From the IMG/VR virus record IMGVR_UViG_2529292759_000002, positions 1-40,408 of that record: a DNA stretch of 40,408 nt. One strand, written 5' to 3'. The stretch comes from a virus (taxonomy: Duplodnaviria > Heunggongvirae > Uroviricota > Caudoviricetes). This document shows positions 1 through 35,029 of this stretch, piece by piece. Both the position numbers and the translations under genes were made by a program. Below the pieces are notes generated by a model that worked only from the letters and a program-made list of their open reading frames with translations, did no database searches and was not told the DNA's origin. Numbering within the stretch: the stretch's first letter is position 1; every line of letters begins with the position of its first letter.

Positions 1-45
1 ATTGAGTGGGAATGATTAACAGCTAACTCATAGCAACTCATTCCT
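1..45. repeat. attL: attL: left copy of the 45-bp direct repeat bounding the prophage
   Basis: Bases 1-45 (ATTGAGTGGGAATGATTAACAGCTAACTCATAGCAACTCATTCCT) recur exactly at 40364-40408; integrase gene lies adjacent. Confidence 0.85.
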
Positions 46-63
46 ATTCAGATACTAATTTAA

Positions 64-94
64 CCCTCTGTTTTTACAGAGGGTTTTTGTTTTT
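64..94 (+). terminator. Intrinsic terminator-like hairpin just inside attL
   Basis: CCCTCTG / CAGAGGG stem with 6-nt loop followed by TTTTTGTTTTT. Confidence 0.5.
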
Positions 95-140
95 ATGTAT
101 TCATTTCTATTCACTCTACACCATATTTTTCGTCGGTACA

Positions 141-180
141 GGTGACGGTATTACCTTAAAGGTATACTCTCATACCGTCA
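141..180. promoter_or_regulatory. Integrase-proximal regulatory region: GGTGACGGTAT arm-like repeat plus a 15-bp palindrome (TTACCTTAAAGGTAT, 151-165)
   Basis: GGTGACGGTAT at 141-151 recurs at 40282-40292 near attR; TGACGGTA/TACCGTCA inverted repeat flanks the palindrome; 43 bp upstream of the int start. Confidence 0.45.
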
Positions 181-207
181 TGAAAATGGTTTCTATACGG
201 GTGAATT

Positions 208-1464
208 GTGCTTACCGATACAAAATTAAAAAACCTCAAGCCGCAGGACAAACTGTACAAGGTCTCCGATCGTGACGGGCTGTATGTAGCTGTGCTTACG
301 TCAGGCACGGTCTCGTTTCGCTATGACTACCGTATCAACGGTCGCCGCGAAACACTGGTAATCGGGCAGTATGGGCGTGACGGTATCAGCCTGGCAGAAG
401 CGCGAGAAGAACTGATTGCTGCAAAGAAGCTGCTTAAAGCAGGCCAGTCACCGGCTGCGGCTAAACGTGACGGTATCAAAAAGATTCGTGGTGCCGAGAC
501 GTTTGCGGTACATACCGACAGTTATATGAAACACGTCATCCTGGCTGACAGTACCCGCGCAATGAAGCAGGCGGTGATCGACCGTGACATACTTCCTGTT
601 CTTGGTAACAAAATGATGGCTGAAATTACCACATCGATGGTTCGTGATTTGTGTGACCGGATTGTCGAACGCGGTGGTCGGGCAACAGCAGTACAGGCCA
701 GGGAGATCATCAGCAGCGTATACCGTCACGCCAATGACCGTGGTCATGGTTTGTTTAATCCTGCGGCTGACATTAAACCTTCGTCTATCGCCATATTTAA
801 ACCACGAGAGCGAACACTGACACCAGAAGAAATTGGCCTGTTCTTCCGCACGCTGGATGCCATTGGTGCTATGGGCACTATGAAAATGGCTTTAAAACTG
901 GTGCTTATCACTATGGTTCGTAAGGGCGAATTCACCAATGCAACGTGGGATGAAATAGATTTTAAAAAATGGACATGGACAATTCCTTCAGACCGCATGA
1001 AGGGAAGCCGGGCGCATGTTATTTACCTGCCTAAACAGGCTCAGGATATATTGGTCGGGTTGCAGATGTGCGCTGGTGGAAGTGAATATCTGGTTCCTGG
1101 TCGTTACAATTTCCGGAAGCCATTATCTAATGCCGCGCTGAACTCTCTGATCGACAGAACGGTGAAAATAATAAATGAAGATGGTGAGCATATTCAGGGC
1201 TTCACCGTACACGATATGCGCCGTACAGCCAGTACGTTGTTGCATGAGGCTGGTTATCCTTCAGACTGGATTGAAAAGGCTCTGGCACATGAGCAGAAAG
1301 GTGTGCGCGCCGTATATAACAAAGCGGAATACGCCAGACAGCGCGCCTACATGTTGCAGCAGTGGGCCGATATGATTGATTCCTGGATTAACGGGGAGCA
1401 TACAGATCTGATTCCGTTCTCCCCGTCGAAGTTTGAGAGGTGGATGGAAGACAGTAATAAATAA
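208..1464 (+). CDS. int: Tyrosine recombinase / phage integrase, P4-type (GTG start)
   Basis: 418 aa; N-terminus MLTDTKLKNLKPQDKLYKVSDRDGLYV typical of P4/CP4-57-type integrases; C-terminal HDMRR and catalytic Tyr region (VRAVYNKAEY). Confidence 0.9.
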   Translation: MLTDTKLKNLKPQDKLYKVSDRDGLYVAVLTSGTVSFRYDYRINGRRETLVIGQYGRDGISLAEAREELIAAKKLLKAGQSPAAAKRDGIKKIRGAETFAVHTDSYMKHVILADSTRAMKQAVIDRDILPVLGNKMMAEITTSMVRDLCDRIVERGGRATAVQAREIISSVYRHANDRGHGLFNPAADIKPSSIAIFKPRERTLTPEEIGLFFRTLDAIGAMGTMKMALKLVLITMVRKGEFTNATWDEIDFKKWTWTIPSDRMKGSRAHVIYLPKQAQDILVGLQMCAGGSEYLVPGRYNFRKPLSNAALNSLIDRTVKIINEDGEHIQGFTVHDMRRTASTLLHEAGYPSDWIEKALAHEQKGVRAVYNKAEYARQRAYMLQQWADMIDSWINGEHTDLIPFSPSKFERWMEDSNK

Positions 1465-2126: not shown

Positions 2127-2785
2127 GCTGCACGCTCCCGCCCCTGGTTGTCTGTTGGTGACAGCGGAGCATTGCTGAATGCATTTGTTAATCCGCCAAT
2201 ATCCAACGCGTATCCAGGATGTAGTTGCACTGCCGGGTCTTCGCACTGATTACCCCAAACATCGAAACCATGAGACGTCTGGCGGGCGAACAGTTCAATG
2301 CGAGAAACATCGCCTAATAATTGCACAAGTTTTTCACGAACGATATCTGGCTTTCTTGAATGCTCAAGCCGCGGTGCGGTAAATGACTGAACGATCCCTG
2401 CATTAATGCGCGTAGGTAGTTTTCCCTTTACCGCAAACAGGCAATCTTCACTATTGGCGCGAGTCATGTGTCCCATACCCATAACCAGTTTATCTGGTTG
2501 TCGACTACCACATTTTATCCACGTGAAGCCCTTCATCGTCATCAGACGAAATCCCCAGGCTTCAACAACTTTTAGTGCTTCGAGTGGTTGTGTTGGCACC
2601 CACCACATGGCCAACAGACAGTTTTCAGCGGTCAAATCCCACACAGGAAGGCGGCAGATATCCAGCACACTCATAACCGGATATTTAAAACCGGCACCGC
2701 GATTACCATCTGCGGCTTTGTCCCGGTATACCCAGGGTGGATCTGCATAGATTAGTGTGTATTTCTTAGTCATAAACCACCCCAC
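2123..2785 (-). CDS. DNA N6-adenine methyltransferase, MT-A70-like (DPPW motif); orphan, no cognate nuclease seen
   Basis: IYADPPW motif near the N-terminus; 220 aa; start is GTG at 2785 or ATG at 2773. Confidence 0.7.
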
Positions 2786-3065
2786 AACATCCTATGCCGC
2801 TATAGTCGCCACGGCGAAGGCCGTTACCTTTTGTGATACATTGGTCCCTGCGAACCGCGATCCTTGCACGTTCAACATCACCAGAAGCAACATCCATACA
2901 CTGAAGCCAAAGGTGAGCGGCAATGCGGAACTGCCCTTTTTTCTCTCTTTCAATCGCGCGTTTTTCGATCTCTATCGCCGCAGGAGTAACGGCGACAATC
3001 TTTGACGGACTGCGCATTGAAACCTTATTCATGTGGTATTTTTCAAGTCGGCTTAACTTTCTCAC
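2766..3065 (-). CDS. Hypothetical protein (uncertain gene)
   Basis: 99-aa ORF in the leftward operon; no recognisable motif; overlaps the methyltransferase start. Confidence 0.3.
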   Translation of the reverse strand: MRKLSRLEKYHMNKVSMRSPSKIVAVTPAAIEIEKRAIEREKKGQFRIAAHLWLQCMDVASGDVERARIAVRRDQCITKGNGLRRGDYSGIGCCGVVYD

Positions 3066-5855: not shown

Positions 5856-5874
5856 AACTTGTTACCTCGGTCTG

Positions 5875-5951
5875 TTACCGTTGAGGTAATAATTATGCTT
5901 ATTTGGTTTGGTGTCAATAGATATGAGTTAAAAAAATTACCCGCAAGGTAA
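5875..5951 (-). promoter_or_regulatory. OL-like region: two 15-bp palindromes (TTACCGTTGAGGTAA 5875-5889; TTACCCGCAAGGTAA 5937-5951) flanking a candidate leftward promoter
   Basis: Palindromes 62 bp apart; minus-strand TTGACA at about 5922-5927 with a TAATTA/ATAATT -10 candidate about 16 bp downstream. Confidence 0.55.
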
Positions 5952-5960
5952 TCTATCTGG

Positions 5961-6008: not shown

Positions 6009-6593
6009 TTATTGTTTGTTTTTTTCGTTCTGGTTGATGACAAATTCAATGTAACTTTCGATCTTTGCTTTCTCGGTTTCGGGTAACAATGCGTAGCGTG
6101 AGCGGTCATAGTTGATAGTCGCAGGGTCGTGCGGGTGAATCAGTAGTTCATATCCGTGACGCCCGAATGCGGATGCAACATTCTCCAGGGTGGAAATGGA
6201 AACGCTGACCTCATTGTTTAACAGGCGGCTGATTGTCACCTGGGCGACGCCGGATGCGCGGTGAAGTTTTCCCTGTGTTGAAAGGTCGCGGCTTTCGCTC
6301 ATCCAGCGTTCCAGGTTGTGAGCCGCCAGCTGACCTATATCGCTCGGGCCGACAGGCTGAAAACCCTCCTGAGAAAGCGAACGATCAATATCAAGCCAGT
6401 TACGGGGTTTATTGGCGGCAGCTTCAATTTTTCGTGCAACCTGGTCGCCGATAACCTTCTTGCCAAGAGCCCAGCGGTTTACCAGATTTGCCTGAGTTCC
6501 AAGTTTTTCTGCCATCCGCGTCTGAACACCATTGAATTCACGGTCGATCAAGTCGTTGAGATTTTGCCTGCGGACGTCCTGGATACTTTTCAT
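6009..6593 (-). CDS. Prophage repressor candidate: tandem HTH (XRE-like) protein with no recognisable S24 autopeptidase domain
   Basis: 194 aa; two HTH-like segments (QTRMAEKLGTQANLVNRWALG and ASGVAQVTISRLLNNEV); divergent from the Cro-like gene with operator-like palindromes between; no GxSM...K signature. Confidence 0.7.
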   Translation of the reverse strand: MKSIQDVRRQNLNDLIDREFNGVQTRMAEKLGTQANLVNRWALGKKVIGDQVARKIEAAANKPRNWLDIDRSLSQEGFQPVGPSDIGQLAAHNLERWMSESRDLSTQGKLHRASGVAQVTISRLLNNEVSVSISTLENVASAFGRHGYELLIHPHDPATINYDRSRYALLPETEKAKIESYIEFVINQNEKNKQ

Positions 6594-6648
6594 TTTCTGG
6601 AAAATCGCCTCATATATGAATCAGTAGATGATTCAATTTAAAGCAATA

Positions 6649-6711
6649 TTACCCAACAGGTAAATGCACCTCATAGGTAACTATCCTTGATTTTTGTTAC
6701 CTTATGGGTGA
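6649..6711. promoter_or_regulatory. OR-like region: three 15-bp palindromic sites between the repressor and Cro-like genes
   Basis: TTACCCAACAGGTAA (6649-6663), GCACCTCATAGGTAA (6666-6680), TTACCTTATGGGTGA (6697-6711); triple arrangement resembles a lambdoid OR. Confidence 0.6.
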
Positions 6712-8946: not shown

Positions 8947-8955
8947 TCTCGATGA

Positions 8956-9031
8956 TTACCTACTGGGTAATAAAATATTCTAAAATCTATTGATTTAGTG
9001 TCTTATGTGGTTTTTAATTACCTCGGGGGTA
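8956..9031. promoter_or_regulatory. Pair of 15-bp palindromes (TTACCTACTGGGTAA 8956-8970; TTACCTCGGGGGTAA 9017-9031) upstream of the 9036 operon
   Basis: Two perfect sites 61 bp apart; the second overlaps the ribosome-binding region of the 9036 gene. Confidence 0.55.
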
Positions 9032-9035
9032 AATC

Positions 9036-9990: not shown

Positions 9991-10430
9991 GCAAGATTGA
10001 CTATCAGGCACTGCGTGAGGCGGCAGAGAAAGCAACGTGTGGCGAGTGGTCGCTCGAATATGGAGATGGCCGATTTGATGGTGATGATGCACTAATTCAT
10101 CGTGAAGTTGCTGGATATATTCCCATTTGCAGAATTGAAGGAGCGCATCCAGAAAGCCGTTTCTATGAAGATTTCCAAATGGAGCAGCAGGCCAATGCTG
10201 AATTCATCGCCGCAGCCAATCCAGCTACCGTGCTGGCACTGCTGGATGAACTGGAAGCAGCAAAAAAGCGCATTGCAGAACTGGAAGCGCGGGAAATACT
10301 GCTCCCGGAACGTAGCAGCATGCTTCATCGAACAGATTTTCACGATGATTACCAAACGGTAATGGCATACAAAGTTTCTGAAGTCATCGATGCAATCCGC
10401 GCTACTGGCATTCGCATCAAAGGAGAGTGA
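9987..10430 (+). CDS. Ead/Ea22-like family protein (tentative)
   Basis: 147 aa; REAAEKATCGEW and AANPATVLALLDELEAAKKRIAELE resemble Ea22-like proteins as recalled. Confidence 0.5.
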   Translation: MSKIDYQALREAAEKATCGEWSLEYGDGRFDGDDALIHREVAGYIPICRIEGAHPESRFYEDFQMEQQANAEFIAAANPATVLALLDELEAAKKRIAELEAREILLPERSSMLHRTDFHDDYQTVMAYKVSEVIDAIRATGIRIKGE

Positions 10431-10431
10431 G

Positions 10432-11187
10432 ATGATTCACTACCACGGTGGGCCTATTACTCCTGATACGTGCGCAATGAGAGCATGGAAAGGGCGACAT
10501 GCGTTTATCAGTTTTGCGCATTCAGGCCAGATCAATCTCGCGGCTGAATACTGTCAGTCGTTCGCGCTGGACAACGGTGCATTCACCGCCTGGAAAGCAG
10601 CTGGCAAAAACAAAATCGACTGGAGCGATTACTACGAGTTTGTTGCTCGCTGGAAGAATCACCCAGGATTCGATTTTGCCATTATCCCGGATGTTATTGA
10701 TGGCGGAGAGGAGGAAAATGATGCGCTTCTGAATGAGTGGCCTCACGGAAAACTAGCTGGCGTTCCAGTGTGGCACATGAATGAAAGTGACGAGCGATTT
10801 ATTCATTTGTGCAATGAGTTTCCGCGAGTGGCTATCGGTAGTTGTGGCGACTATGACGTAAAGCGCCCAACTCTTGCGGTAGCCAGAATGAAAGACCTGA
10901 TTCGTCACATTGTTGATGGGCATGGTCAGCCGGTTACGAAACTACATGGATTGCGCATGTTAAATCCGCTGATATTCACAAAATTACCCTTAGCCAGCGC
11001 AGATAGTACGAACGTCGCTCGAAACATCGGTATTGATAAAGCCTGGTCTGGGGCTTATGCACCTGCAAGTAAAGAGACACGCGCAGCATTAATGGTAGAA
11101 CGGATTGAGGCACACAATAGCCCTGGTTCTCTTGCGTATTGTGAACAACGCGACCGCTTTGAAATGCAATTGCAACTAGCAGTTTAA
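10432..11187 (+). CDS. Hypothetical enzyme-like protein of unknown function (252 aa)
   Basis: Start at the internal ATG (MIHYHGGP...) 1 nt after the previous stop; acidic Asp/Glu-rich segments; no confident family. Confidence 0.5.
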   Translation: MIHYHGGPITPDTCAMRAWKGRHAFISFAHSGQINLAAEYCQSFALDNGAFTAWKAAGKNKIDWSDYYEFVARWKNHPGFDFAIIPDVIDGGEEENDALLNEWPHGKLAGVPVWHMNESDERFIHLCNEFPRVAIGSCGDYDVKRPTLAVARMKDLIRHIVDGHGQPVTKLHGLRMLNPLIFTKLPLASADSTNVARNIGIDKAWSGAYAPASKETRAALMVERIEAHNSPGSLAYCEQRDRFEMQLQLAV

Positions 11188-11850: not shown

Positions 11851-12124
11851 CCTGCAACTTGCCGTTAAAGGTGAATACTTCGATGCCATGATTCGCGGAG
11901 AGAAAACGGAAGAGTATCGCCTGTGTAATGACTACTGGAATAAGCGAATTATGTTCCGGGAGTATGACCGCCTGATTATCACAAAGGGATATCCGAAGCG
12001 CGACGATTCCAGCCGTAGAATTGATGTTCCGTATGACGGATATGAAATAAAGACAATCACACATCCCCACTTCGGCGATAAACCGGTAAAGGTGTACGCG
12101 ATAAAGGTGAATATTGATGGCTAA
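11843..12124 (+). CDS. Hypothetical small protein (possibly ASCH/PUA-like fold)
   Basis: 93 aa; overlaps both neighbours, consistent with an operon. Confidence 0.45.
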   Translation: MANLQLAVKGEYFDAMIRGEKTEEYRLCNDYWNKRIMFREYDRLIITKGYPKRDDSSRRIDVPYDGYEIKTITHPHFGDKPVKVYAIKVNIDG

Positions 12125-12455
12125 ATCAGCAGCAGAGCGCAAAGCCGCTCAGAGAGCCAGACAAGCTGCATCTGGTGTGCGTAAGCTGGAAATTGTGCTT
12201 GATGCTCAGGAAATTGAAATGCTGGAGCGTAACTGTGCCACGCGTCGCCCCGGGCGTGCGCCTTACGAATTTGGTGAGTATATAGCGTTACTGATCCGCC
12301 AGGATGATGCACGCGTGCGCGGGCGTATAAAATCGATCAGCAAAAAATGTTGCGGTAAGTGCGGCGAGAGAGTTCCAGTTAATTCATGCCCGTGTAATGG
12401 TGACTCGCAATGCTGGGTGACTAAAGGCTGGCATGAAACGAAATTAATAGTGTGA
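12114..12455 (+). CDS. Cys-rich small protein immediately upstream of a terminator and the terminase genes; candidate late-gene regulator
   Basis: 113 aa; basic N-terminus; C-terminal cluster KKCCGKCGERVPVNSCPCNGDSQC; position analogous to a Q-type regulator (inference). Confidence 0.45.
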   Translation: MMAKSAAERKAAQRARQAASGVRKLEIVLDAQEIEMLERNCATRRPGRAPYEFGEYIALLIRQDDARVRGRIKSISKKCCGKCGERVPVNSCPCNGDSQCWVTKGWHETKLIV

Positions 12456-12504
12456 CATGTCACGAGTAGATTATGCATGATGAATTTGATGGGGTTTGAA
12501 TACT

Positions 12505-12530
12505 GCCGCCAACTATGGCGGCTTTATTTT
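12505..12530 (+). terminator. Strong intrinsic terminator between the early block and the terminase genes
   Basis: GCCGCC-AACTAT-GGCGGC hairpin followed by TTTATTTT. Confidence 0.7.
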
Positions 12531-12541
12531 GCATGGTACTA

Positions 12542-12574
12542 TTACCACAACGGTAACTATTACCACGGTGGTTA
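12542..12574. promoter_or_regulatory. Tandem 15-bp palindromes directly upstream of the terminase small-subunit start
   Basis: TTACCACAACGGTAA (12542-12556) and TTACCACGGTGGTTA (12560-12574), the second ending at the ATG. Confidence 0.5.
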
Positions 12575-13170
12575 TGATGCCTGCTGAACCTAAAACCTAT
12601 AAACGCAAATCAACGCAATTTAAGCCACTAACAGCAATGCAGGAGGCTTATTGCCAGTCATACATCAAAACGCCTGAAAACCAGACTCAGGCAGCGATTA
12701 ACGCAGGATTCTCCCCAAATACAGCGGCAGTTAAAGCCAGTGTCATGATGCGCGATGAACGCATTCAAAAACGGATTGCCGAGTTGATGGAGGAGCGCAA
12801 CAAACGAATGCGCGTCAGTGCTGATTACGTTCTCATGCGCCTGGTGGAGATCGACCAGATGGACGTGATCGACATCCTCAACGACGATGGGAGCCTTAAA
12901 CCAATCCGTGAGTGGCCGAAAATCTGGCGCACTACGCTTAGTGGCTTTGATCTGTCATCGACCATCATGAACATGAACGAGGATTCGATAGAGACAATCC
13001 TCAAAAAAATTAAATGGCCTGACAAGGTGAAGAACCTTGAGCTGATTGGTAAGCATGTTGATGTCAACGCGTTCAAAGAACGTCTGGATGTTAATGTGAA
13101 TGTGACAATTGCTGATCGCATAGCAGCAGCCAGGAAGCGACTCAAAGAACGTCAGGATGGTAATCAGTGA
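12574..13170 (+). CDS. Terminase small subunit
   Basis: Start at the internal ATG (MMPAEPKTYKRK...); about 198 aa; directly precedes the large subunit with 4-bp overlap. Confidence 0.7.
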   Translation: MMPAEPKTYKRKSTQFKPLTAMQEAYCQSYIKTPENQTQAAINAGFSPNTAAVKASVMMRDERIQKRIAELMEERNKRMRVSADYVLMRLVEIDQMDVIDILNDDGSLKPIREWPKIWRTTLSGFDLSSTIMNMNEDSIETILKKIKWPDKVKNLELIGKHVDVNAFKERLDVNVNVTIADRIAAARKRLKERQDGNQ

Positions 13171-14636
13171 CAGATACAGCGTTATCTCCTGAAGAGCAGT
13201 TGATCGAGGATATTGCAGGGTTCACTCACGATCCGCTTGGCTATGCCCTCTATGCGTTCCCGTGGGGGGAAGAGGGTACTGAACTGGCACATGCCACCGG
13301 TCCACGTCAGTGGCAGGCCGATGCGTTCCGAGAGATACGTGATCACCTGCAGAATCCAGAGACGCGCTATCAGCCGCTTATGCTGGCACGCGCTTCTGGT
13401 CACGGTATTGGTAAATCCGCATTCATCTCAATGCTGATCAACTGGGGCATGTCCACTTGCGAGGATTGTAAGGTCGTGGTGACCGCCAACACCGACAACC
13501 AGCTACGAACGAAGACCTGGCCGGAAATTATCAAGTGGTCGAACCTTGCTATCACGAAAGACTGGTTTACCTGTACCGCTACTGCGATGTACAGCAATGA
13601 TCCTGGGCACGACAAGCGGTGGCGAGCTGACGCAATCCCCTGGTCTGAGCACAACACTGAGGCATTCGCCGGACTACACAACGAGCGCAAACGCATCATC
13701 GTGGTATTCGATGAAGCGTCGAACATTGCGGATCTGGTGTGGGAAGTTGCTGAGGGTGCGCTTACGGACGAAGACACTGAGATTATCTGGGTGGCGTTCG
13801 GAAACCCGACGCGTAATACCGGACGTTTCCGTGAATGTTTCCGCAAGTATAAACACCGCTGGAAAACTGCGCAGATTGACAGTCGGACGGTGGAAGGTAC
13901 CAACAAACAGCAGTTGCAGAAATGGGTTGATGACTACGGGGAAGACAGCGACTTCGTTAAAATCCGTGTGCGTGGCATATTCCCTGATGCATCTGAATTG
14001 CAGTTTATCCCTACCGGTCTTACTGACGAGGCAATGAAACGGGTGGTAACCGCTGCGCAGGTTGCACATGCTCCGGTGATAATCGGCGTTGACCCGGCAT
14101 ACTCCGGCGTTGATGACGCTGTGATATACCTGCGGCAGGGGCTACACAGTAAGGTGCTGTGGACTGGCAACAAGACCACTGACGATCTGATAATGGCGAA
14201 GCGTATCGCTGACTTTGAAGACCAGTACCAGGCTGACGCAGTGTTCATCGACTTCGGTTACGGAACTGGTCTGAAGTCAATCGGTGACGGCTGGGGTCGT
14301 ACATGGCAACTTGTTCCGTTTGGTGGCGCGTCTACTGACCCGCAGATGCTCAACAAGCGTGGGGAGATGTTCAACTCATGCAAGACATGGCTGAGGCTGG
14401 GCGGCATGCTTGATGACCAGGAAACAGCGGACGACCTGTCGGCGGCAGAGTACAAAGTTCGAGTGGACGGTAAAATCGTTATCGAACCGAAGGAAGATAT
14501 CAAGGAGCGGCTTGGGCGTTCTCCTGGTAAAGGCGATGCGCTACTGCTGACGTTTGCGTTCCCGGTAGCCAAGAAAACTAATGACCCACGGCAGCAGCAG
14601 GGCAGGGCTATAACAGACTATGACCCATTTGAATGA
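13167..14636 (+). CDS. Terminase large subunit
   Basis: 489 aa; Walker-A-like RASGHGIGKS; VVFDEASNI (Walker B/DExx-like); C-terminal nuclease-like region. Confidence 0.9.
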   Translation: MTDTALSPEEQLIEDIAGFTHDPLGYALYAFPWGEEGTELAHATGPRQWQADAFREIRDHLQNPETRYQPLMLARASGHGIGKSAFISMLINWGMSTCEDCKVVVTANTDNQLRTKTWPEIIKWSNLAITKDWFTCTATAMYSNDPGHDKRWRADAIPWSEHNTEAFAGLHNERKRIIVVFDEASNIADLVWEVAEGALTDEDTEIIWVAFGNPTRNTGRFRECFRKYKHRWKTAQIDSRTVEGTNKQQLQKWVDDYGEDSDFVKIRVRGIFPDASELQFIPTGLTDEAMKRVVTAAQVAHAPVIIGVDPAYSGVDDAVIYLRQGLHSKVLWTGNKTTDDLIMAKRIADFEDQYQADAVFIDFGYGTGLKSIGDGWGRTWQLVPFGGASTDPQMLNKRGEMFNSCKTWLRLGGMLDDQETADDLSAAEYKVRVDGKIVIEPKEDIKERLGRSPGKGDALLLTFAFPVAKKTNDPRQQQGRAITDYDPFE

Positions 14637-14639
14637 TTT

Positions 14640-15488
14640 TTACTTTTGTGTTTTTGATTTTCTTTGATAGGTGGAATTTAAATCACCATTTATATTTACT
14701 AGAGGATTATTCAATAATGTACTGATTTCTGGATTGTTAATTCCAGTAACGCCAAGTTTCTTTACGGACTCATTAAAGTCTTGTAATGATTTTAGACCTA
14801 CAAGCCCATTAGCAATTGTATTATTTGTTGCCAAAGGAATGTTTTTCTTATAGGACTCATATTCGTTTTTTAAATTTTTGTGAGTTTTTTCTAGATTTTC
14901 TAGTTTAGATGTTGTTTCATCAATAACCTTAGATAATTCTAAAATACGAGCTTGTGCTGCGCGCAGTTCTGTCTCCCTCTCTTTCAATTCAGATGTGAGT
15001 TGTCCCATTCTGTCTTTTGAAAGAATTATTTCCTCTTTCATGTCTTGAATGTTTTTTTCAGCGCCTGTTTTTACTTTTTCGTAAGTAATGTCTTTTTTAG
15101 CCAGCAATCTCTGTAGCCGTGTTTCACGTTGTATTTTTCTTGCCTTCCGGTGGTTTTCGATTGAGTCATTATTATCAAGAGGTTTTGCTTGCCATACGTT
15201 AATGATATTGTTTACCCATGGTAATAGGCAGCAGATAGTAATTACAGATAAGCATGGATAAAACATAACAGTTTTCCATGTGCTGTTATCTGAGATGTAT
15301 GAAATTTTATCTATTATATTTGATTTGCTAAAAAACAGATAAAGAAGTGATTTCCAGTTGAAGGCGCACCAGGACATAACAAAAGCACCAAGCACAGGGT
15401 TTTTAGCTCGATGCACGGCAGTATTGGCAGTAGATAAAAACAGCTCTTTGAACGATTCGAACATACTAATTACCTTAAAGTTTTTCAT
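14640..15488 (-). CDS. AT-rich moron: unknown protein with two N-terminal hydrophobic segments and a long coiled-coil region
   Basis: Reverse strand between the terminase and portal genes; markedly AT-rich; start at MKNFKV (15488) or an internal Met at 15464; coiled-coil-like segment ETRLQRLLAKK...ELRAAQARILELSKVIDETTSKLENLEKTHKNLKNE. Confidence 0.6.
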   Translation of the reverse strand: MKNFKVISMFESFKELFLSTANTAVHRAKNPVLGAFVMSWCAFNWKSLLYLFFSKSNIIDKISYISDNSTWKTVMFYPCLSVITICCLLPWVNNIINVWQAKPLDNNDSIENHRKARKIQRETRLQRLLAKKDITYEKVKTGAEKNIQDMKEEIILSKDRMGQLTSELKERETELRAAQARILELSKVIDETTSKLENLEKTHKNLKNEYESYKKNIPLATNNTIANGLVGLKSLQDFNESVKKLGVTGINNPEISTLLNNPLVNINGDLNSTYQRKSKTQK

Positions 15489-15507
15489 GATTATACCTTT
15501 AAGGTAA
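15470..15507. promoter_or_regulatory. Palindromic site (ATACCTTTAAGGTAA 15493-15507) plus half-site (TTACC 15470-15474) at the moron start; a TATAAT hexamer overlaps
   Basis: Minus strand reads TTACCTTAAAGGTATAATCATG; a second ATTACCTTAAAG copy lies 25 bp downstream in the transcript. Confidence 0.5.
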
Positions 15508-15521
15508 TTTGTGGTCATCAG

Positions 15522-15711: not shown

Positions 15712-15788
15712 TGGCGTGGCATGCAGGATTCGAACCTGCGACCAACCGCTTAGAAGGCGGTTGCTCTGTCCAACTGAGCTAATGCCAC
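15712..15788 (-). tRNA. tRNA-Arg (anticodon UCU), argU-like
   Basis: Hand-folded cloverleaf: acceptor GTGGCAT/ATGCCAC, D-stem GCTC/GAGC, anticodon stem ACCGC/GCGGT with loop CTTCTAA, T-arm GCAGG-TTCGAAT-CCTGC, encoded CCA; 77 nt. Confidence 0.85.
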
Positions 15789-16110
15789 AACGCTGAGAGC
15801 ACTTAGCCTGTTAAGGCGCCACACTTTGTCGCGGCTCCATAAATGCTCTCATCGTTGTACCCTCGTCTCTTCCGAGGCGTCACACCGAATCGCCGGGATG
15901 GTGAATCCCCGTGCGCGGAATAAAACCGCTCGACTTGCACATTCCGGCTACCTGGTTCGTTTGCCCGAGCAAGGGAGGGTGCCCCTTAAACGTATCCAGA
16001 CCGCTATCGGCGCATGTGCCATACGCCGTACTGCTCAAAATAAAAGCTCACTCCACCTGTTCAATTTAACGACAAGCCAGTCAGGTTAGTAACCGGAATG
16101 AACTCTTTGG

Positions 16111-16125
16111 TTACCTGAAGGGTAA
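16111..16125. promoter_or_regulatory. 15-bp palindrome (TTACCTGAAGGGTAA) upstream of the structural gene block
   Basis: Perfect site about 90 bp upstream of the 16216 ATG. Confidence 0.45.
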
Positions 16126-16215
16126 TAATTTGTGCGTTAAATGTCAACTATCTACGATAAATAAATCATATGTGGTTAAATTGGTAATAATTTAATTGCG
16201 TACGGAGTCATTGAT

Positions 16216-32389: not shown

Positions 32390-32686
32390 ATGCAAGCGAT
32401 AGGATTCATTGTTTATATCGTCGTTGGCCTTTTTCAGTTGGCAGCAATTATGGCTGGGCTTGAATCATGGTGGGGATTGCACTGGATAATTGCAGCCCCC
32501 ATTGCTTTCATCGTGAGCTATATTCCATTTGTTGGAGCGATTGTTGGTATGGTTGGCGCTGTGGATGTATGGCGGTGGGAGTGGTGGCAGGCTGGCCTTC
32601 TCTTCTTTGGTGGGATCATCTTTGCTATTGTCTGCGGTGGAATGTCATCATTTTTCGAATGGCTATCATTCAGAAAAGGGACGTGA
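32390..32686 (+). CDS. Small Trp-rich integral membrane protein (candidate superinfection-exclusion or lysogenic-conversion factor)
   Basis: 98 aa with 2-3 hydrophobic helices; located after the ejection proteins; followed by a bidirectional terminator. Confidence 0.45.
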   Translation: MQAIGFIVYIVVGLFQLAAIMAGLESWWGLHWIIAAPIAFIVSYIPFVGAIVGMVGAVDVWRWEWWQAGLLFFGGIIFAIVCGGMSSFFEWLSFRKGT

Positions 32687-32756
32687 CATGTCACAGGCCG
32701 CTTTCGCGGCCTTGTTTTTAACGAATGCCACCGCCGCCCGGGCGGGAATCCGCAGA

Positions 32757-33418: not shown

Positions 33419-33477
33419 TTCGTCCTCCCATGTTTGGCTACAGGACGCGTTTTGAAGGGAAGATTAAAAATGCTTTC

Positions 33478-33492
33478 TTACCCTTGAGGTAA
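33478..33492. promoter_or_regulatory. 15-bp palindrome (TTACCCTTGAGGTAA) upstream of the 210-aa accessory gene
   Basis: Perfect site 60 bp upstream of the ATG at 33418. Confidence 0.5.
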
Positions 33493-33565
33493 TAGTACGC
33501 TATTCACCCCCAGTCTGCAATCTGTACAGAATTATTTAAAGGCACATCCCTGTGCCGCCGTTCTG

Positions 33566-34261
33566 TCAGAAGAACCCTGCCTTGTCGTTGATGTACTCCG
33601 CGTGGGTCTGGATATCACGCAGGCATTTGCTCACACCGACGATGTAGCAGAACATGGTGGTCAGTTCCGCCGCCGCGCCCGATACGTCGTGCCCGTCTTC
33701 CTGTAACTGGTTCAGCAGATTCATCAGCAGTGAGTTCTCCGTCAGGCCGAGAACACCAGACGGCGAATGAATCAGGCTACGGTAGCCGGGCTTCAGTGGG
33801 GCACTGTAGGTTTTGTTCTCTATCTTCATCGCCTGCATTACTGCTGACGCCGTGGCGTTGGCTACCTGGTCGGCAACCATCTTTATGCGTTCTTCCTGCG
33901 GGAGCGAGTTTTTAATGTAACTTCCGGTGCGGCGGATCTGAGGAAGAACCTCACCTGTAACCCATTTACGAAAGCGGTAGGGGATAGTGCCTGGTGTCAC
34001 TGCGTCGCGGCAGCGGAGGATCAGTGTGTAGAGGCCTGACTCGGAGATGATGATCGATTCTTGCTCACCGCCAGGGGTGTCGGTTGAAGCGACGCCCTTC
34101 TCATCATCATCAAGTTTTCGAACAGCATCTCGATGGTTTGCTATGCCTATAGCCCGACAAACATCTGAAGCGATAAACCATGGCTCACCATTAATGACGA
34201 TTACCCGTATATCGGCTTGGGATTCGAAAGAAAAAATGGACGTGCTTTTTGTAGCTGTCAT
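33566..34261 (-). CDS. Bro-N / KilA-N domain antirepressor (Ant-like)
   Basis: 231 aa; N-terminal pattern IRVIVINGEPWFIASDVCRAIGIANHRDAVRKL...ESGLYTLILR typical of Bro-N antirepressors; C-terminal domain paralogous to the small upstream gene. Confidence 0.75.
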   Translation of the reverse strand: MTATKSTSIFSFESQADIRVIVINGEPWFIASDVCRAIGIANHRDAVRKLDDDEKGVASTDTPGGEQESIIISESGLYTLILRCRDAVTPGTIPYRFRKWVTGEVLPQIRRTGSYIKNSLPQEERIKMVADQVANATASAVMQAMKIENKTYSAPLKPGYRSLIHSPSGVLGLTENSLLMNLLNQLQEDGHDVSGAAAELTTMFCYIVGVSKCLRDIQTHAEYINDKAGFF

Positions 34262-34418
34262 AGTGGTTACCTTTTAGTCTGGTTAATCACCACTACCGAC
34301 GCCAATCGGTTGGTGGTGAACTGTGCAGGGTTGGCGTAACCGGCTAAAAGGACCCGGCGCACCTTTCGGTGCCCCCACACAGCCCACCATAATACGAATG
34401 TGGCCGTGCTATACGCAT

Positions 34419-34438
34419 AAAAAAACCGCTTGCGCGGT
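34419..34438 (-). terminator. Intrinsic terminator between the small SOS-box gene and the antirepressor gene
   Basis: Minus-strand ACCGCGCAAGCGGT hairpin followed by TTTTTTT. Confidence 0.55.
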
Positions 34439-34530
34439 GAATGCGCCTTTTAGTAATCCGGGACGCCAATCCCGGCACTGGATTTTGCCAGTGCTCGATT
34501 ACTATGGCACAAGAGGAGTGCGTTGTAAAT

Positions 34531-34873: not shown

Positions 34874-34910
34874 GCAAATAATTTGTTTGCTATCCAGCAC
34901 GTTTTGCAAA

Positions 34911-34925
34911 TTACCTGAAAGGTAA
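34911..34925. promoter_or_regulatory. 15-bp palindrome (TTACCTGAAAGGTAA) upstream of the SOS box
   Basis: Perfect site about 40 bp upstream of the LexA box on the transcribed strand. Confidence 0.5.
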
Positions 34926-35029
34926 TATCTATTCGTATTTACAGCCTTTCTATCCATATGTGGTTTTCCAGGTAATAGAATAACCAGATATGCGGCGCAA
35001 CGGGTGCTGCGACTATCTGGAGATTTAAC

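What the first reader, a model, noticed from the sequence alone, without database searches (positions are those of the whole stretch)
12114..12574. Candidate late-control region: Cys-rich small protein, strong terminator, and tandem palindromes abutting the terminase start
The order Cys-rich gene (12114-12455), short promoter-sized gap, intrinsic terminator (12505-12530), then the first late gene resembles the lambda Q - pR' - tR' arrangement, although the 113-aa protein is unlike lambda Q. Two palindromic sites then sit directly on the terminase ribosome-binding region, so late-gene entry may be controlled both by antitermination or activation and by the palindrome-binding factor.
Basis: inference. 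Interest (0 to 1): 0.55.

Follow-up and report, generated by a model that had tools for sequence, protein, structure and literature searches.

The report
Early–late operon junction, epsilon15-like phage
This stretch is the ordinary boundary between the early genes and the DNA-packaging genes of an epsilon15-like temperate phage: the "tandem palindromes" are most likely prophage-repressor operators, not a lambda-Q-type switch. The small Cys-rich protein belongs to an unstudied family of probable DNA-binding proteins that always travels with its own 12-bp palindrome.

Summary
All the described features are real, but the lambda Q–pR'–tR' reading does not hold.

**Context.** The window is an epsilon15-like (Uetakevirus) phage, 99% identical to PAS61 over this stretch.

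**Palindromes.** The two palindromes before terS are copies of a 17-bp family, ATTACC-N5-GGTAAT. There are 15 matches in the window against 1.25 expected. The same family flanks the repressor gene, and the epsilon15 GenBank record annotates it as repressor-binding sites. The repressor is a homolog of SPC32H Rep.

**Terminator and gap.** The terminator is genuine and travels with terS. The "promoter-sized gap" is not conserved: it is 30 nt in epsilon15, and in the window it is the remnant of an ORF present in relatives. Other relatives have a LexA-controlled gene there and no terminator.

**Cys-rich protein.** Homologs sit in N15, ZF40 and AH07, which each have their own annotated Q-like or antitermination gene, and they are not next to a terminase gene there. 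A confident AlphaFold model shows a ribbon-helix-helix fold plus a Cys4 knuckle.

**New lead.** A perfect palindrome, GTGAC-N2-GTCAC, overlaps the gene's stop codon in nearly every homolog examined. It occurs 2–3 times in each of six phage genomes carrying the gene (16 in total, about 0.25 expected) and not at all in lambda or P22. Its arms equal those of the host matS site, with a spacer one base shorter. The function of this protein–site pair is unknown.

The parts
12117..12455 (+). Gene for a 112-aa ribbon-helix-helix + Cys4 zinc-knuckle protein (epsilon15 gp49 / phiV10 p55 / N15 gp46 family, phrog_536). It is the last gene of the early-right (nin-like) operon and is translationally coupled to the ASCH gene upstream.
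12452..12463 (.). Perfect 12-bp palindrome GTGACATGTCAC overlapping the stop codon (TGA 12453-12455). It is the probable cognate site of the RHH-Cys4 protein.
   Evidence: Present at or next to the stop codon in 96 of 106 homolog loci, whatever lies downstream. Also present in distant family members.
12464..12504 (+). Non-conserved spacer. It is the remnant of the 3' end of an ORF that is intact in relatives, and there is no conserved promoter.
12505..12530 (+). Intrinsic terminator (GCCGCC-AACT-ATGGCGGC... followed by a T run) that ends the early-right operon.
   Evidence: conserved with terS in epsilon15, PAT1, L010, L012 and L013
12541..12557 (.). Operator O1, ATTACCACAACGGTAAC, of the ATTACC-N5-GGTAAT family.
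   Evidence: equivalent to epsilon15 'protein_bind: repressor' 12..27
12559..12575 (.). Operator O2, ATTACCACGGTGGTTAT. It is the weaker copy; it covers the Shine-Dalgarno GGTGG (12567-12571) and ends 1 nt before the terS start codon.
12577..13170 (+). Small terminase subunit gene (Terminase_2), the first gene of the packaging unit, with the corrected start.
6009..6593 (-). Prophage repressor gene, a homolog of SPC32H Rep (PDB 5D50). It is flanked by operators of the same family at 5874-5890, 5936-5952 and 6648-6664.
16110..16126 (.). Operator of the same family before the next late unit (gp3-like gene at 16196). Further copies lie at 8955-8971, 9017-9033, 33477-33493 and 34910-34926 (the last before the tailspike gene).
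32683..32694 (.). Second copy of GTGACATGTCAC. It overlaps the stop codon of ORF 32390-32686 and is followed directly by a terminator (GGCCGCtttcGCGGCC plus a T run).

Best explanation
The region is the junction between the early-right (nin-like) operon and the packaging operon of an epsilon15-like temperate phage. It is built from three separable modules, not from a Q-type switch.

(a) The last early gene encodes a dimeric ribbon-helix-helix protein with a C-terminal Cys4 zinc knuckle. Its probable DNA site is the 12-bp palindrome GTGACATGTCAC lying on its own stop codon. That it binds this site is inferred.

(b) An intrinsic terminator stops early transcripts. This follows from the sequence and its conservation; its efficiency is unknown.

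(c) Two adjacent 17-bp operators, ATTACC-N5-GGTAAT, lie between the terminator and the terS start. They are bound by the prophage repressor (Rep, SPC32H type), which keeps terS-terL silent in the lysogen. It would do so by occluding a weak promoter or by blocking read-through. Equivalent operators do the same before the head, tailspike and nin-like units. Binding is inferred from the site distribution and from the epsilon15 annotation.

Entry into the late genes is therefore governed mainly by loss of Rep at operators placed before each unit. Some read-through of the terminator may add to this. The Cys-rich protein is not a Q-like factor acting on a promoter next to its gene.
For: - **Identity of the phage.** The window is 99% identical to PAS61 and related to phiV10 and epsilon15.
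- **Operator family.** There are 15 matches against 1.25 expected. They lie at OL and OR around the repressor gene, before the nin-like unit, terS, the gp3-like gene and the tailspike gene. The same layout is found in PAS61 and epsilon15. The epsilon15 record annotates these sites as repressor-binding, including the one before terS. The arms are conserved and the spacer is free across about 130 loci. Lambda has none.
- **Repressor.** It is a homolog of SPC32H Rep (E 4e-42, full length), and Rep is reported to bind palindromic DNA as a tetramer (PMC9638917).
- **The modules separate in relatives.** The operators stay with terS when a umuD-like gene is inserted. The terminator stays with terS in L010. 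The GTGAC palindrome stays with the Cys-rich gene.
- **The gap is not conserved**.
- **Homologs coexist with separate Q-like or antitermination genes**.
- **Fold.** The model is a ribbon-helix-helix fold.
- **Palindrome counts.** The spacer-2 palindrome occurs 16 times in six genomes carrying the gene, other spacers occur 0 times, and lambda and P22 have 0 spacer-2 copies.
Against: - No binding experiment exists for this phage, and the primary SPC32H and epsilon15 papers could not be read.
- No convincing sigma-70 promoter is found between the terminator and terS. The best reading scores about 6-7 of 12 (own inspection; nothing). What Rep represses at this site is therefore unclear.
- All relatives share the same operator arms, so covariation of operator and repressor could not be tested.
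- No N- or Q-like antiterminator was found among the early ORFs, so how the terminators are passed and how late timing is set remain open.
- In the epsilon15 group the GTGAC palindromes lie within 41 nt or less of terminators at three unit ends. A role of the RHH-Cys4 protein in termination is therefore not excluded.
Confidence: 0.6

Rival explanations
1. First reader's model. The Cys-rich protein is the late regulator: it acts at a promoter or terminator directly downstream of its gene, by Q-like antitermination or by activation, to open the terminase operon.
For: - It is the last early gene before terS in epsilon15-like phages.
- No recognisable N- or Q-like gene is found among the early ORFs.
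- A palindrome linked to the gene lies 41 nt before the terminator. Other copies lie next to terminators at the ends of the terL and gp18-like units.
- There is a weak promoter-like match, GTGACA-18-CATGAT.
Against: - The gap is not conserved: it is 30 nt in epsilon15, an ORF remnant in the window, and holds whole genes in relatives.
- The distance from the palindrome to terS varies from about 90 to about 500 nt.
- Some relatives have no terminator before terS.
- Homologs in N15, ZF40 and AH07 coexist with Q-like or antitermination genes and are not near late genes.
- In N15, ZF40 and AH07 the extra palindromes lie in early genes.
- There is no Q, Ogr or Delta homology.
Confidence: 0.1
2. The RHH-Cys4 protein and its GTGAC-N2-GTCAC sites form a portable protein-site system with no direct role in late transcription. 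It could bridge or organise DNA as MatP/matS or a centromere-binding protein does, insulate morons, or mark and promote exchange at mosaic junctions.
For: - Gene and site travel together across unrelated phages and down to about 35% protein identity.
- Each genome has 2-3 sites and only spacer 2 occurs.
- The arms are identical to those of matS, GTGAC[AG]N[TC]GTCAC (PMC3603311).
- In epsilon15-like phages the sites lie exactly where conserved DNA meets variable moron DNA. At least six different morons abut the terL-end site.
Against: - hhalign against MatP is not significant (probability 0.3).
- The protein lacks MatP's four-helix bundle and coiled coil.
- No partner ATPase or recombinase gene is seen next to it.
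- Site positions relative to genes differ between phage groups.
Confidence: 0.2
3. The tandem repeats before terS are recognition sites for the small terminase (cosB- or pac-like), not transcription operators.
For: They lie directly upstream of terS and always travel with it. The layout recalls the lambda R sites between cosN and Nu1 (own knowledge).
Against: The same 17-bp palindrome occurs at OL and OR around the repressor gene and before four or more other units across the genome. That distribution fits a repressor regulon, not a unique packaging site. The epsilon15 authors annotated these sites as repressor sites.
Confidence: 0.03
4. Control of terS is mainly at the RNA level. The inverted repeats fold in the mRNA leader and hide the Shine-Dalgarno sequence and the start codon.
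For: The stretch 12531-12590 folds at -20.7 kcal/mol (z -4.1), with GGUGG and AUG paired.
Against: The hairpin is weak or different in epsilon15-type relatives (z -0.6 to -1.5), although their DNA arms are conserved.
Confidence: 0.07

Closest known systems
Lambda Q - pR' - tR' late switch
   Same: A small regulator-like gene is the last one before the late genes, and a terminator lies between it and the first late gene.
   Different: There is no sequence or fold similarity to Q. There is no conserved promoter or Q-binding element, and the gap is variable and partly an ORF remnant. Relatives carry inserted genes or lack the terminator. Homologs coexist with real Q-like genes in N15 and ZF40.
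Rep repressor and operators of epsilon15 / SPC32H (PDB 5D50); predicted repressor sites in the epsilon15 GenBank record
   Same: The repressor is a homolog (E 4e-42). The same ATTACC-N5-GGTAAT palindrome occurs at OL, OR and before terS, the gp3-like gene and the tailspike gene. The site before terS is already annotated in epsilon15.
   Different: Nothing has been tested in this phage. Here the terS site is a tandem pair, and the second copy covers the Shine-Dalgarno sequence. What is repressed at this spot (a promoter or read-through) is unknown.
Mycobacteriophage L5 gp71 'stoperators' (own knowledge: Brown et al. 1997)
   Same: Repressor sites are scattered through the genome outside the immunity region, including the late genes, and silence the prophage.
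   Different: L5 has about 30 asymmetric 13-bp sites, oriented and lying within transcribed regions. Here there are about 10-13 palindromic sites in intergenic regions at the heads of units.
MatP / matS of E. coli
   Same: MatP contains a ribbon-helix-helix domain. The palindrome arms GTGAC/GTCAC are identical. Both have a few dispersed sites.
   Different: The spacer is 2 bp, not 3. The phage protein has no four-helix bundle or coiled coil and has a Cys4 knuckle instead. Sequence similarity is not significant. Some family members come from contigs of 54-63% G+C, whose hosts could not be identified.
P2 Ogr / P4 Delta / Mu C zinc-finger late activators (own knowledge)
   Same: They are small phage proteins with a Cys4 metal site.
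   Different: No Pfam Ogr_Delta match was found. The phage protein has a ribbon-helix-helix N-terminal domain. Its palindrome lies at gene 3' ends, not at about -55 of late promoters.
ParB-parS and RHH centromere-binding proteins (omega, ParG)
   Same: The gene is followed directly by its own palindromic binding site, and the binder is a ribbon-helix-helix protein.
   Different: No partner ATPase is present, and the system occurs in integrating phages.

Membership tests
Lambda Q-type antiterminator module | Protein homologous to a Q family | tested here: not met
   There is no Pfam, NCBIfam or PDB match to Q. The model is a ribbon-helix-helix fold.
Lambda Q-type antiterminator module | Binding element inside a sigma-70 late promoter directly downstream of the gene | tested here: not met
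   Only a 9-of-12 promoter-like match is found. The segment is not conserved, is 30 nt in epsilon15, and is an ORF remnant in the window.
Lambda Q-type antiterminator module | Terminator downstream that is read through only with the protein | not testable with these tools
   The terminator is present but is absent in the umuD-type relatives. Dependence on the protein needs an experiment.
Ribbon-helix-helix DNA-binding proteins | Strand-helix-helix core that pairs into a dimer | tested here: met
Ribbon-helix-helix DNA-binding proteins | Binds a short palindromic or repeated site | not testable with these tools
   The inference rests on the gene-linked palindrome GTGAC-N2-GTCAC.
Cys4 zinc knuckle / ribbon | Four conserved Cys in a CxxC...C...C pattern | tested here: met
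   C79 and C82 are invariant and C99 is nearly so. C91 is invariant in A1, with a Cys kept nearby in most of the wider family A2. Metal binding was not tested.
MatP / matS | Four-helix bundle + RHH + coiled coil; 13-bp site GTGACRNYGTCAC | tested here: not met
   hhalign probability is 0.3. The model has no bundle or coiled coil. The site spacer is 2, and no 13-bp matS occurs in any of the six phage genomes.
Rep (SPC32H / epsilon15 type) operator regulon | Homologous repressor encoded in the phage | tested here: met
   PDB 5D50 matches at E 4e-42 over the full length. Identity to epsilon15 gp38 is 42%.
Rep (SPC32H / epsilon15 type) operator regulon | The same palindrome flanks the repressor gene and recurs at other units; arms conserved, spacer free | tested here: met
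   annotated as repressor sites in epsilon15
Rep (SPC32H / epsilon15 type) operator regulon | Physical binding of Rep to the sites before terS | not testable with these tools
   The primary papers are not held in the library.
Intrinsic terminator | G+C-rich hairpin followed by a U tract, at the end of an operon | tested here: met
   position conserved
Ogr / Delta zinc-finger late activators | Ogr_Delta domain; site at about -55 of late promoters | tested here: not met
   No Pfam hit was found. The palindromes lie at gene 3' ends.
Small-terminase recognition site (cosB / pac) | Repeats confined to the packaging start | tested here: not met
   The same motif is dispersed through the genome, including at OL and OR.

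The most novel reading that the evidence does not exclude
In epsilon15-like phages, where no Q- or N-like gene was found, the RHH-Cys4 protein bound at GTGAC-N2-GTCAC sites next to the terminators would be the missing late timer. The sites lie at the ends of the early, packaging and head units. The protein would be a DNA-bound factor that changes termination or read-through at these three junctions. More broadly, the family would be a portable phage protein-site system whose site mimics the host matS with one base less in the spacer.
Probability: 0.12. Interest if true: 0.75.

Novelty: new variant of a known kind. Interest (0 to 1): 0.42.

Why it matters
The region as first described is ordinary. 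It is another copy of the epsilon15-type layout, in which repressor operators stand before each lytic unit, and those sites are already predicted in the epsilon15 record. It also corrects the terS start annotated in phiV10 and PAS61.

What is worth following is the side result. A widespread, uncharacterised phage protein family (phrog_536, named 'transcriptional regulator' with no experimental evidence found in the searches made here) now has three things:

- a confident fold: ribbon-helix-helix plus a Cys4 knuckle;
- a precise candidate DNA site: GTGAC-N2-GTCAC;
- a clear, cheap test: EMSA with spacer variants.

The site shares its arms with matS, which prophages are reported to avoid (PMC3603311). 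In epsilon15-like phages it lies exactly at the junctions where morons are swapped. If the protein acts on termination or on DNA organisation there, it would bear on two open questions: how phages without a Q protein time their late genes, and how mosaic junctions are maintained.

Tried and rejected
- **Promoter inside the terminator stem.** I considered a promoter in the gap (-10 AATACT at 12499-12504) that starts inside the stem so that late transcripts skip the terminator. Rejected: the gap is not conserved and is an ORF remnant.
- **Repeats as terS (cosB/pac) sites.** Rejected because the motif is dispersed through the genome.
- **phiV10 record start as a physical genome end.** The phiV10 record starts inside the palindrome, at window 12456. 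This is just numbering after the last gene; other records start elsewhere.
- **First AlphaFold run.** The shallow alignment gave pLDDT 64.5 and Foldseek hits without meaning. It was replaced by the deep-alignment model.
- **Sequence search of PDB with the family profile.** Nothing significant.
- **Pfam scan of 69 family members.** Only weak RHH and zinc-ribbon hints.
- **hhalign against MatP.** Not significant.
- **AFDB fold search.** Library not available.
- **Primary papers.** The epsilon15 and SPC32H papers are not held in the library, and a search on the packaging mode gave nothing useful. Literature searches for the palindrome and for N15 gp46 gave nothing.
- **Covariation of operator with immunity type.** Not possible, because all relatives share the same arms.
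- **Locus search with the distant-subfamily alignment.** P0184 gave no viral loci.
- **Motif CATATGTGGTT as a shared late-promoter element.** Only 4 good copies and no enrichment at 2 mismatches. Left as an aside.

Full report
**What the window is.** The 1.4 kb around the finding is 99% identical to Escherichia phage PAS61. It also matches phiV10, TL-2011b and, more distantly, epsilon15. The gene order is that of an epsilon15-like (Uetakevirus) temperate podophage: integrase, early-left genes, repressor, cro-like gene, replication genes, a nin-like accessory region, terS-terL, structural genes, tailspike, lysis genes. The finding therefore sits at the boundary between the early-right genes and the packaging genes.

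**Check of the observation.**

- The ORF is a real gene. It scores E 6e-55 against phrog_536 and has 726 database homologs. Its start is ATG 12117, which overlaps the stop of the ASCH gene upstream.
- The terminator at 12505-12530 is the best hit of the scan. It folds as predicted and is conserved in place in relatives, and the epsilon15 record annotates it.
- The palindromes before terS are real. The conserved unit is ATTACC-N5-GGTAAT: O1 at 12541-12557 and O2 at 12559-12575.
- In about 130 related loci the arms hardly change while the 5-bp spacer changes freely. This is the signature of a protein-binding site in the ATTACC phase.
- terS starts at ATG 12577.

**Who binds the palindromes.** The 17-bp motif has 15 matches with up to 2 mismatches in the window, against 1.25 expected.

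- The good copies lie on both sides of the repressor gene: 5874 and 5936 on one side, 6648 on the other.
- Further good copies lie before the nin-like unit (8955, 9017), before terS, before the gp3-like gene (16110) and before the tailspike gene (34910).
- PAS61 and epsilon15 have the same layout, and lambda has none.
- The epsilon15 GenBank record marks these sites 'protein_bind: repressor, lysogeny', including 12..27 just before terS.
- The window's repressor (6009-6593, minus strand) is a full-length homolog of SPC32H Rep, PDB 5D50 (E 4e-42). Rep is reported to bind palindromic sites as a tetramer (PMC9638917).

The 'palindrome-binding factor' is thus most likely the prophage repressor. This part of the finding was already predicted for a relative. 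It works like the dispersed repressor sites of mycobacteriophage L5 (own knowledge), though the sites here are palindromic and lie at the heads of units.

**Why the Q-like reading fails.**

1. The 'promoter-sized gap' is not a conserved element.
   - In epsilon15 only 30 nt of different sequence separate the stop codon from the terminator.
   - In relatives such as L039 a 70-codon ORF fills the space. Its last codons (..FYDEFDGL*) are the sequence that remains in the window's gap.
   - In Klebsiella, Enterobacter and Pseudocitrobacter relatives a LexA-box promoter and a umuD-like gene lie there. No terminator precedes terS in those relatives, yet the operators remain next to terS.
2. The protein family is not tied to late genes.
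   - N15 gp46 lies in mid-operon, and N15 has its own Q-like gene and a late promoter-terminator pair.
   - ZF40 gp22 precedes NinB, and ZF40 has a Q-like gp25.
   - In AH07 the gene is in the early-left operon next to xis, and the phage has its own annotated antitermination protein.
3. The protein has no similarity to Q, Ogr or Delta.

**What the Cys-rich protein is.** With a deep alignment (69 sequences down to about 25% identity), AlphaFold gives a confident model: pLDDT 93.4, pTM 0.70.

- The model has a basic N-terminal helix (5-19), an extended segment (20-29), two helices (30-42 and 52-74), a Cys-rich knuckle, and a last helix (100-108).
- The conserved Cys residues form a CxxC...C...C set.
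- It is therefore a probable dimeric DNA-binding protein with a zinc-binding tail. The name 'transcriptional regulator' in databases is supported by no experimental evidence found in the searches made here.

**The new observation.** A perfect palindrome, GTGACATGTCAC (12452-12463), overlaps the stop codon.

- The pattern GTGAC-N2-GTCAC lies on or within a few bases of the stop codon in 96 of 106 homolog loci. This holds whatever follows: a terminator and terS, another ORF, a LexA-box gene, xis, NinB or N15 gene 47. Four close relatives carry one mismatch.
- It is also present in distant family members. In the P0208 group, at about 36% protein identity, it lies on the stop codon.
- In the P0202 group, from contigs of 54-63% G+C, 3 of 28 loci have an exact copy by the stop codon, and about a dozen more have one-mismatch, paired or split copies within about 60 nt.
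- Each complete genome that has the gene has 2-3 exact copies: the window 2, PAS61 3, epsilon15 3, N15 3, ZF40 3, AH07 2. About 0.04 is expected per genome.
- The same arms with spacers of 0, 1, 3, 4, 5 or 6 never occur in these genomes. Lambda and P22, which lack the gene, have no spacer-2 copy.
- The central two bases vary and the arms do not.
- The simplest reading is that this is the protein's own binding site. That is an inference; no binding was shown.

**Where the other copies lie.**

- In the window the second copy (32683-32694) again overlaps a stop codon and is followed at once by a terminator.
- In epsilon15, phiV10, PAS61 and many prophages a third copy lies between the bidirectional terminator after terL and the stop codon of a leftward moron. 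At least six different morons abut this same palindrome.
- The window lacks this third copy because a different moron replaces the whole segment.
- In this phage group the sites therefore mark the ends of units and the exact points where conserved DNA meets variable DNA.
- In N15, ZF40 and AH07 the extra copies are in or near early genes. No single positional rule holds across groups.

**How the junction most likely works.**

- Shown by sequence and comparison: the early-right operon ends with the RHH-Cys4 gene and a terminator, and two operators of the repressor family stand between the terminator and the terS start.
- Inferred: in the lysogen Rep sits on O1 and O2 and keeps terS-terL off, as it does at the other units. 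After Rep is removed, terS is transcribed from a weak promoter overlapping the operators, by read-through of the terminator, or both.
- No strong sigma-70 promoter is seen here (own inspection), and no N- or Q-like gene was found among the early ORFs. The source of late transcripts therefore remains the main open point.
- In this lineage the two operators also make an mRNA hairpin that hides the Shine-Dalgarno sequence and the start codon (-20.7 kcal/mol, z -4.1). That hairpin is not conserved in epsilon15-type relatives.

**Verdict.** The Q-like interpretation is not supported, while the idea of a palindrome-binding controller at terS is supported, and the controller is most likely the prophage repressor. 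The region itself is ordinary for this phage group. The moderately novel and directly testable result is the RHH-Cys4 family with its gene-linked, matS-like 12-bp palindrome.

Noticed in passing
window 12452-12463 and 32683-32694; PAS61 (L004) 14608-14619; epsilon15 (L107) 2142, 19517, 39612: The palindrome GTGACATGTCAC lies exactly at junctions between conserved DNA and variable moron DNA, always next to an intrinsic terminator. At least six different leftward morons end 4-7 nt from the copy after terL.
   Followed up: yes
window 34309-34494 (-) and 33566-34261 (-): Rfam finds isrK and C4 antisense RNA genes (77.9 and 77.7 bits) just upstream of a Bro-N protein gene. This looks like a P1-type c4/ant antirepressor module, with operator-like sites nearby at 34530 and 34910.
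   Followed up: partly
window 15712-15788 (-): A tRNA-Arg (anticodon TCT) gene lies in the moron region between terL and the head genes. Next to it is a 292-aa leftward ORF (14640-15518) with no family match. This segment replaces the terminator, palindrome and moron found at this place in PAS61 and phiV10.
   Followed up: partly
window 9002, 16167, 34955, 38385 (+): The motif C(A/T)TAT(G/A)TGGTT lies upstream of four rightward units (nin-like, head, tailspike, lysis), about 30-45 nt after an operator in three of them. It also occurs in epsilon15 at the same places. It may be a shared promoter element or activator site, and it is absent before terS. It is not enriched at 2 mismatches.
   Followed up: partly
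window 2766-3065 (-): A PerC-family 'transcriptional activator' (Pfam E 6e-7, phrog_868) is encoded in the early-left operon. It is an untested candidate regulator, and no N- or Q-like protein was found among the early ORFs.
   Followed up: partly
window 10390-11187 (+): A DpdA-like / queuine tRNA-ribosyltransferase-like protein (phrog_887, E 5e-104) is encoded in the nin-like region. This hints at 7-deazaguanine DNA modification. No Pfam hit was found.
   Followed up: no
window 12496-12576; phiV10 CDS 41..715; PAS61 CDS 12387..13061: The terS start is annotated in phiV10 and PAS61 at a TTG that would put the terminator and both operators inside the coding region. Comparison with epsilon15, and with relatives in which the first ATG is ATT, puts the start at ATG 12577.
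   Followed up: yes
window 12531-12590: The mRNA leader folds into a strong hairpin (-20.7 kcal/mol, z -4.1) that pairs the Shine-Dalgarno sequence and the start codon of terS. This is specific to the E. coli lineage and is not seen in epsilon15-type relatives.
   Followed up: yes
L009, L103, L105, L106 (loci of relatives), just after the Cys-rich gene: In several Klebsiella, Enterobacter and Pseudocitrobacter relatives a LexA box (TACTGTTTAAATGTACAGTA) with a promoter-like site drives a umuD-like gene that runs straight into terS with no terminator. SOS-controlled transcription could therefore enter the packaging genes directly.
   Followed up: partly
window 5874/5936 and 8955/9017; epsilon15 32554/32616 and 35906/35968: Pairs of operators recur at a fixed 62-bp centre-to-centre spacing. 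This would suit a tetrameric repressor that binds two sites.
   Followed up: no
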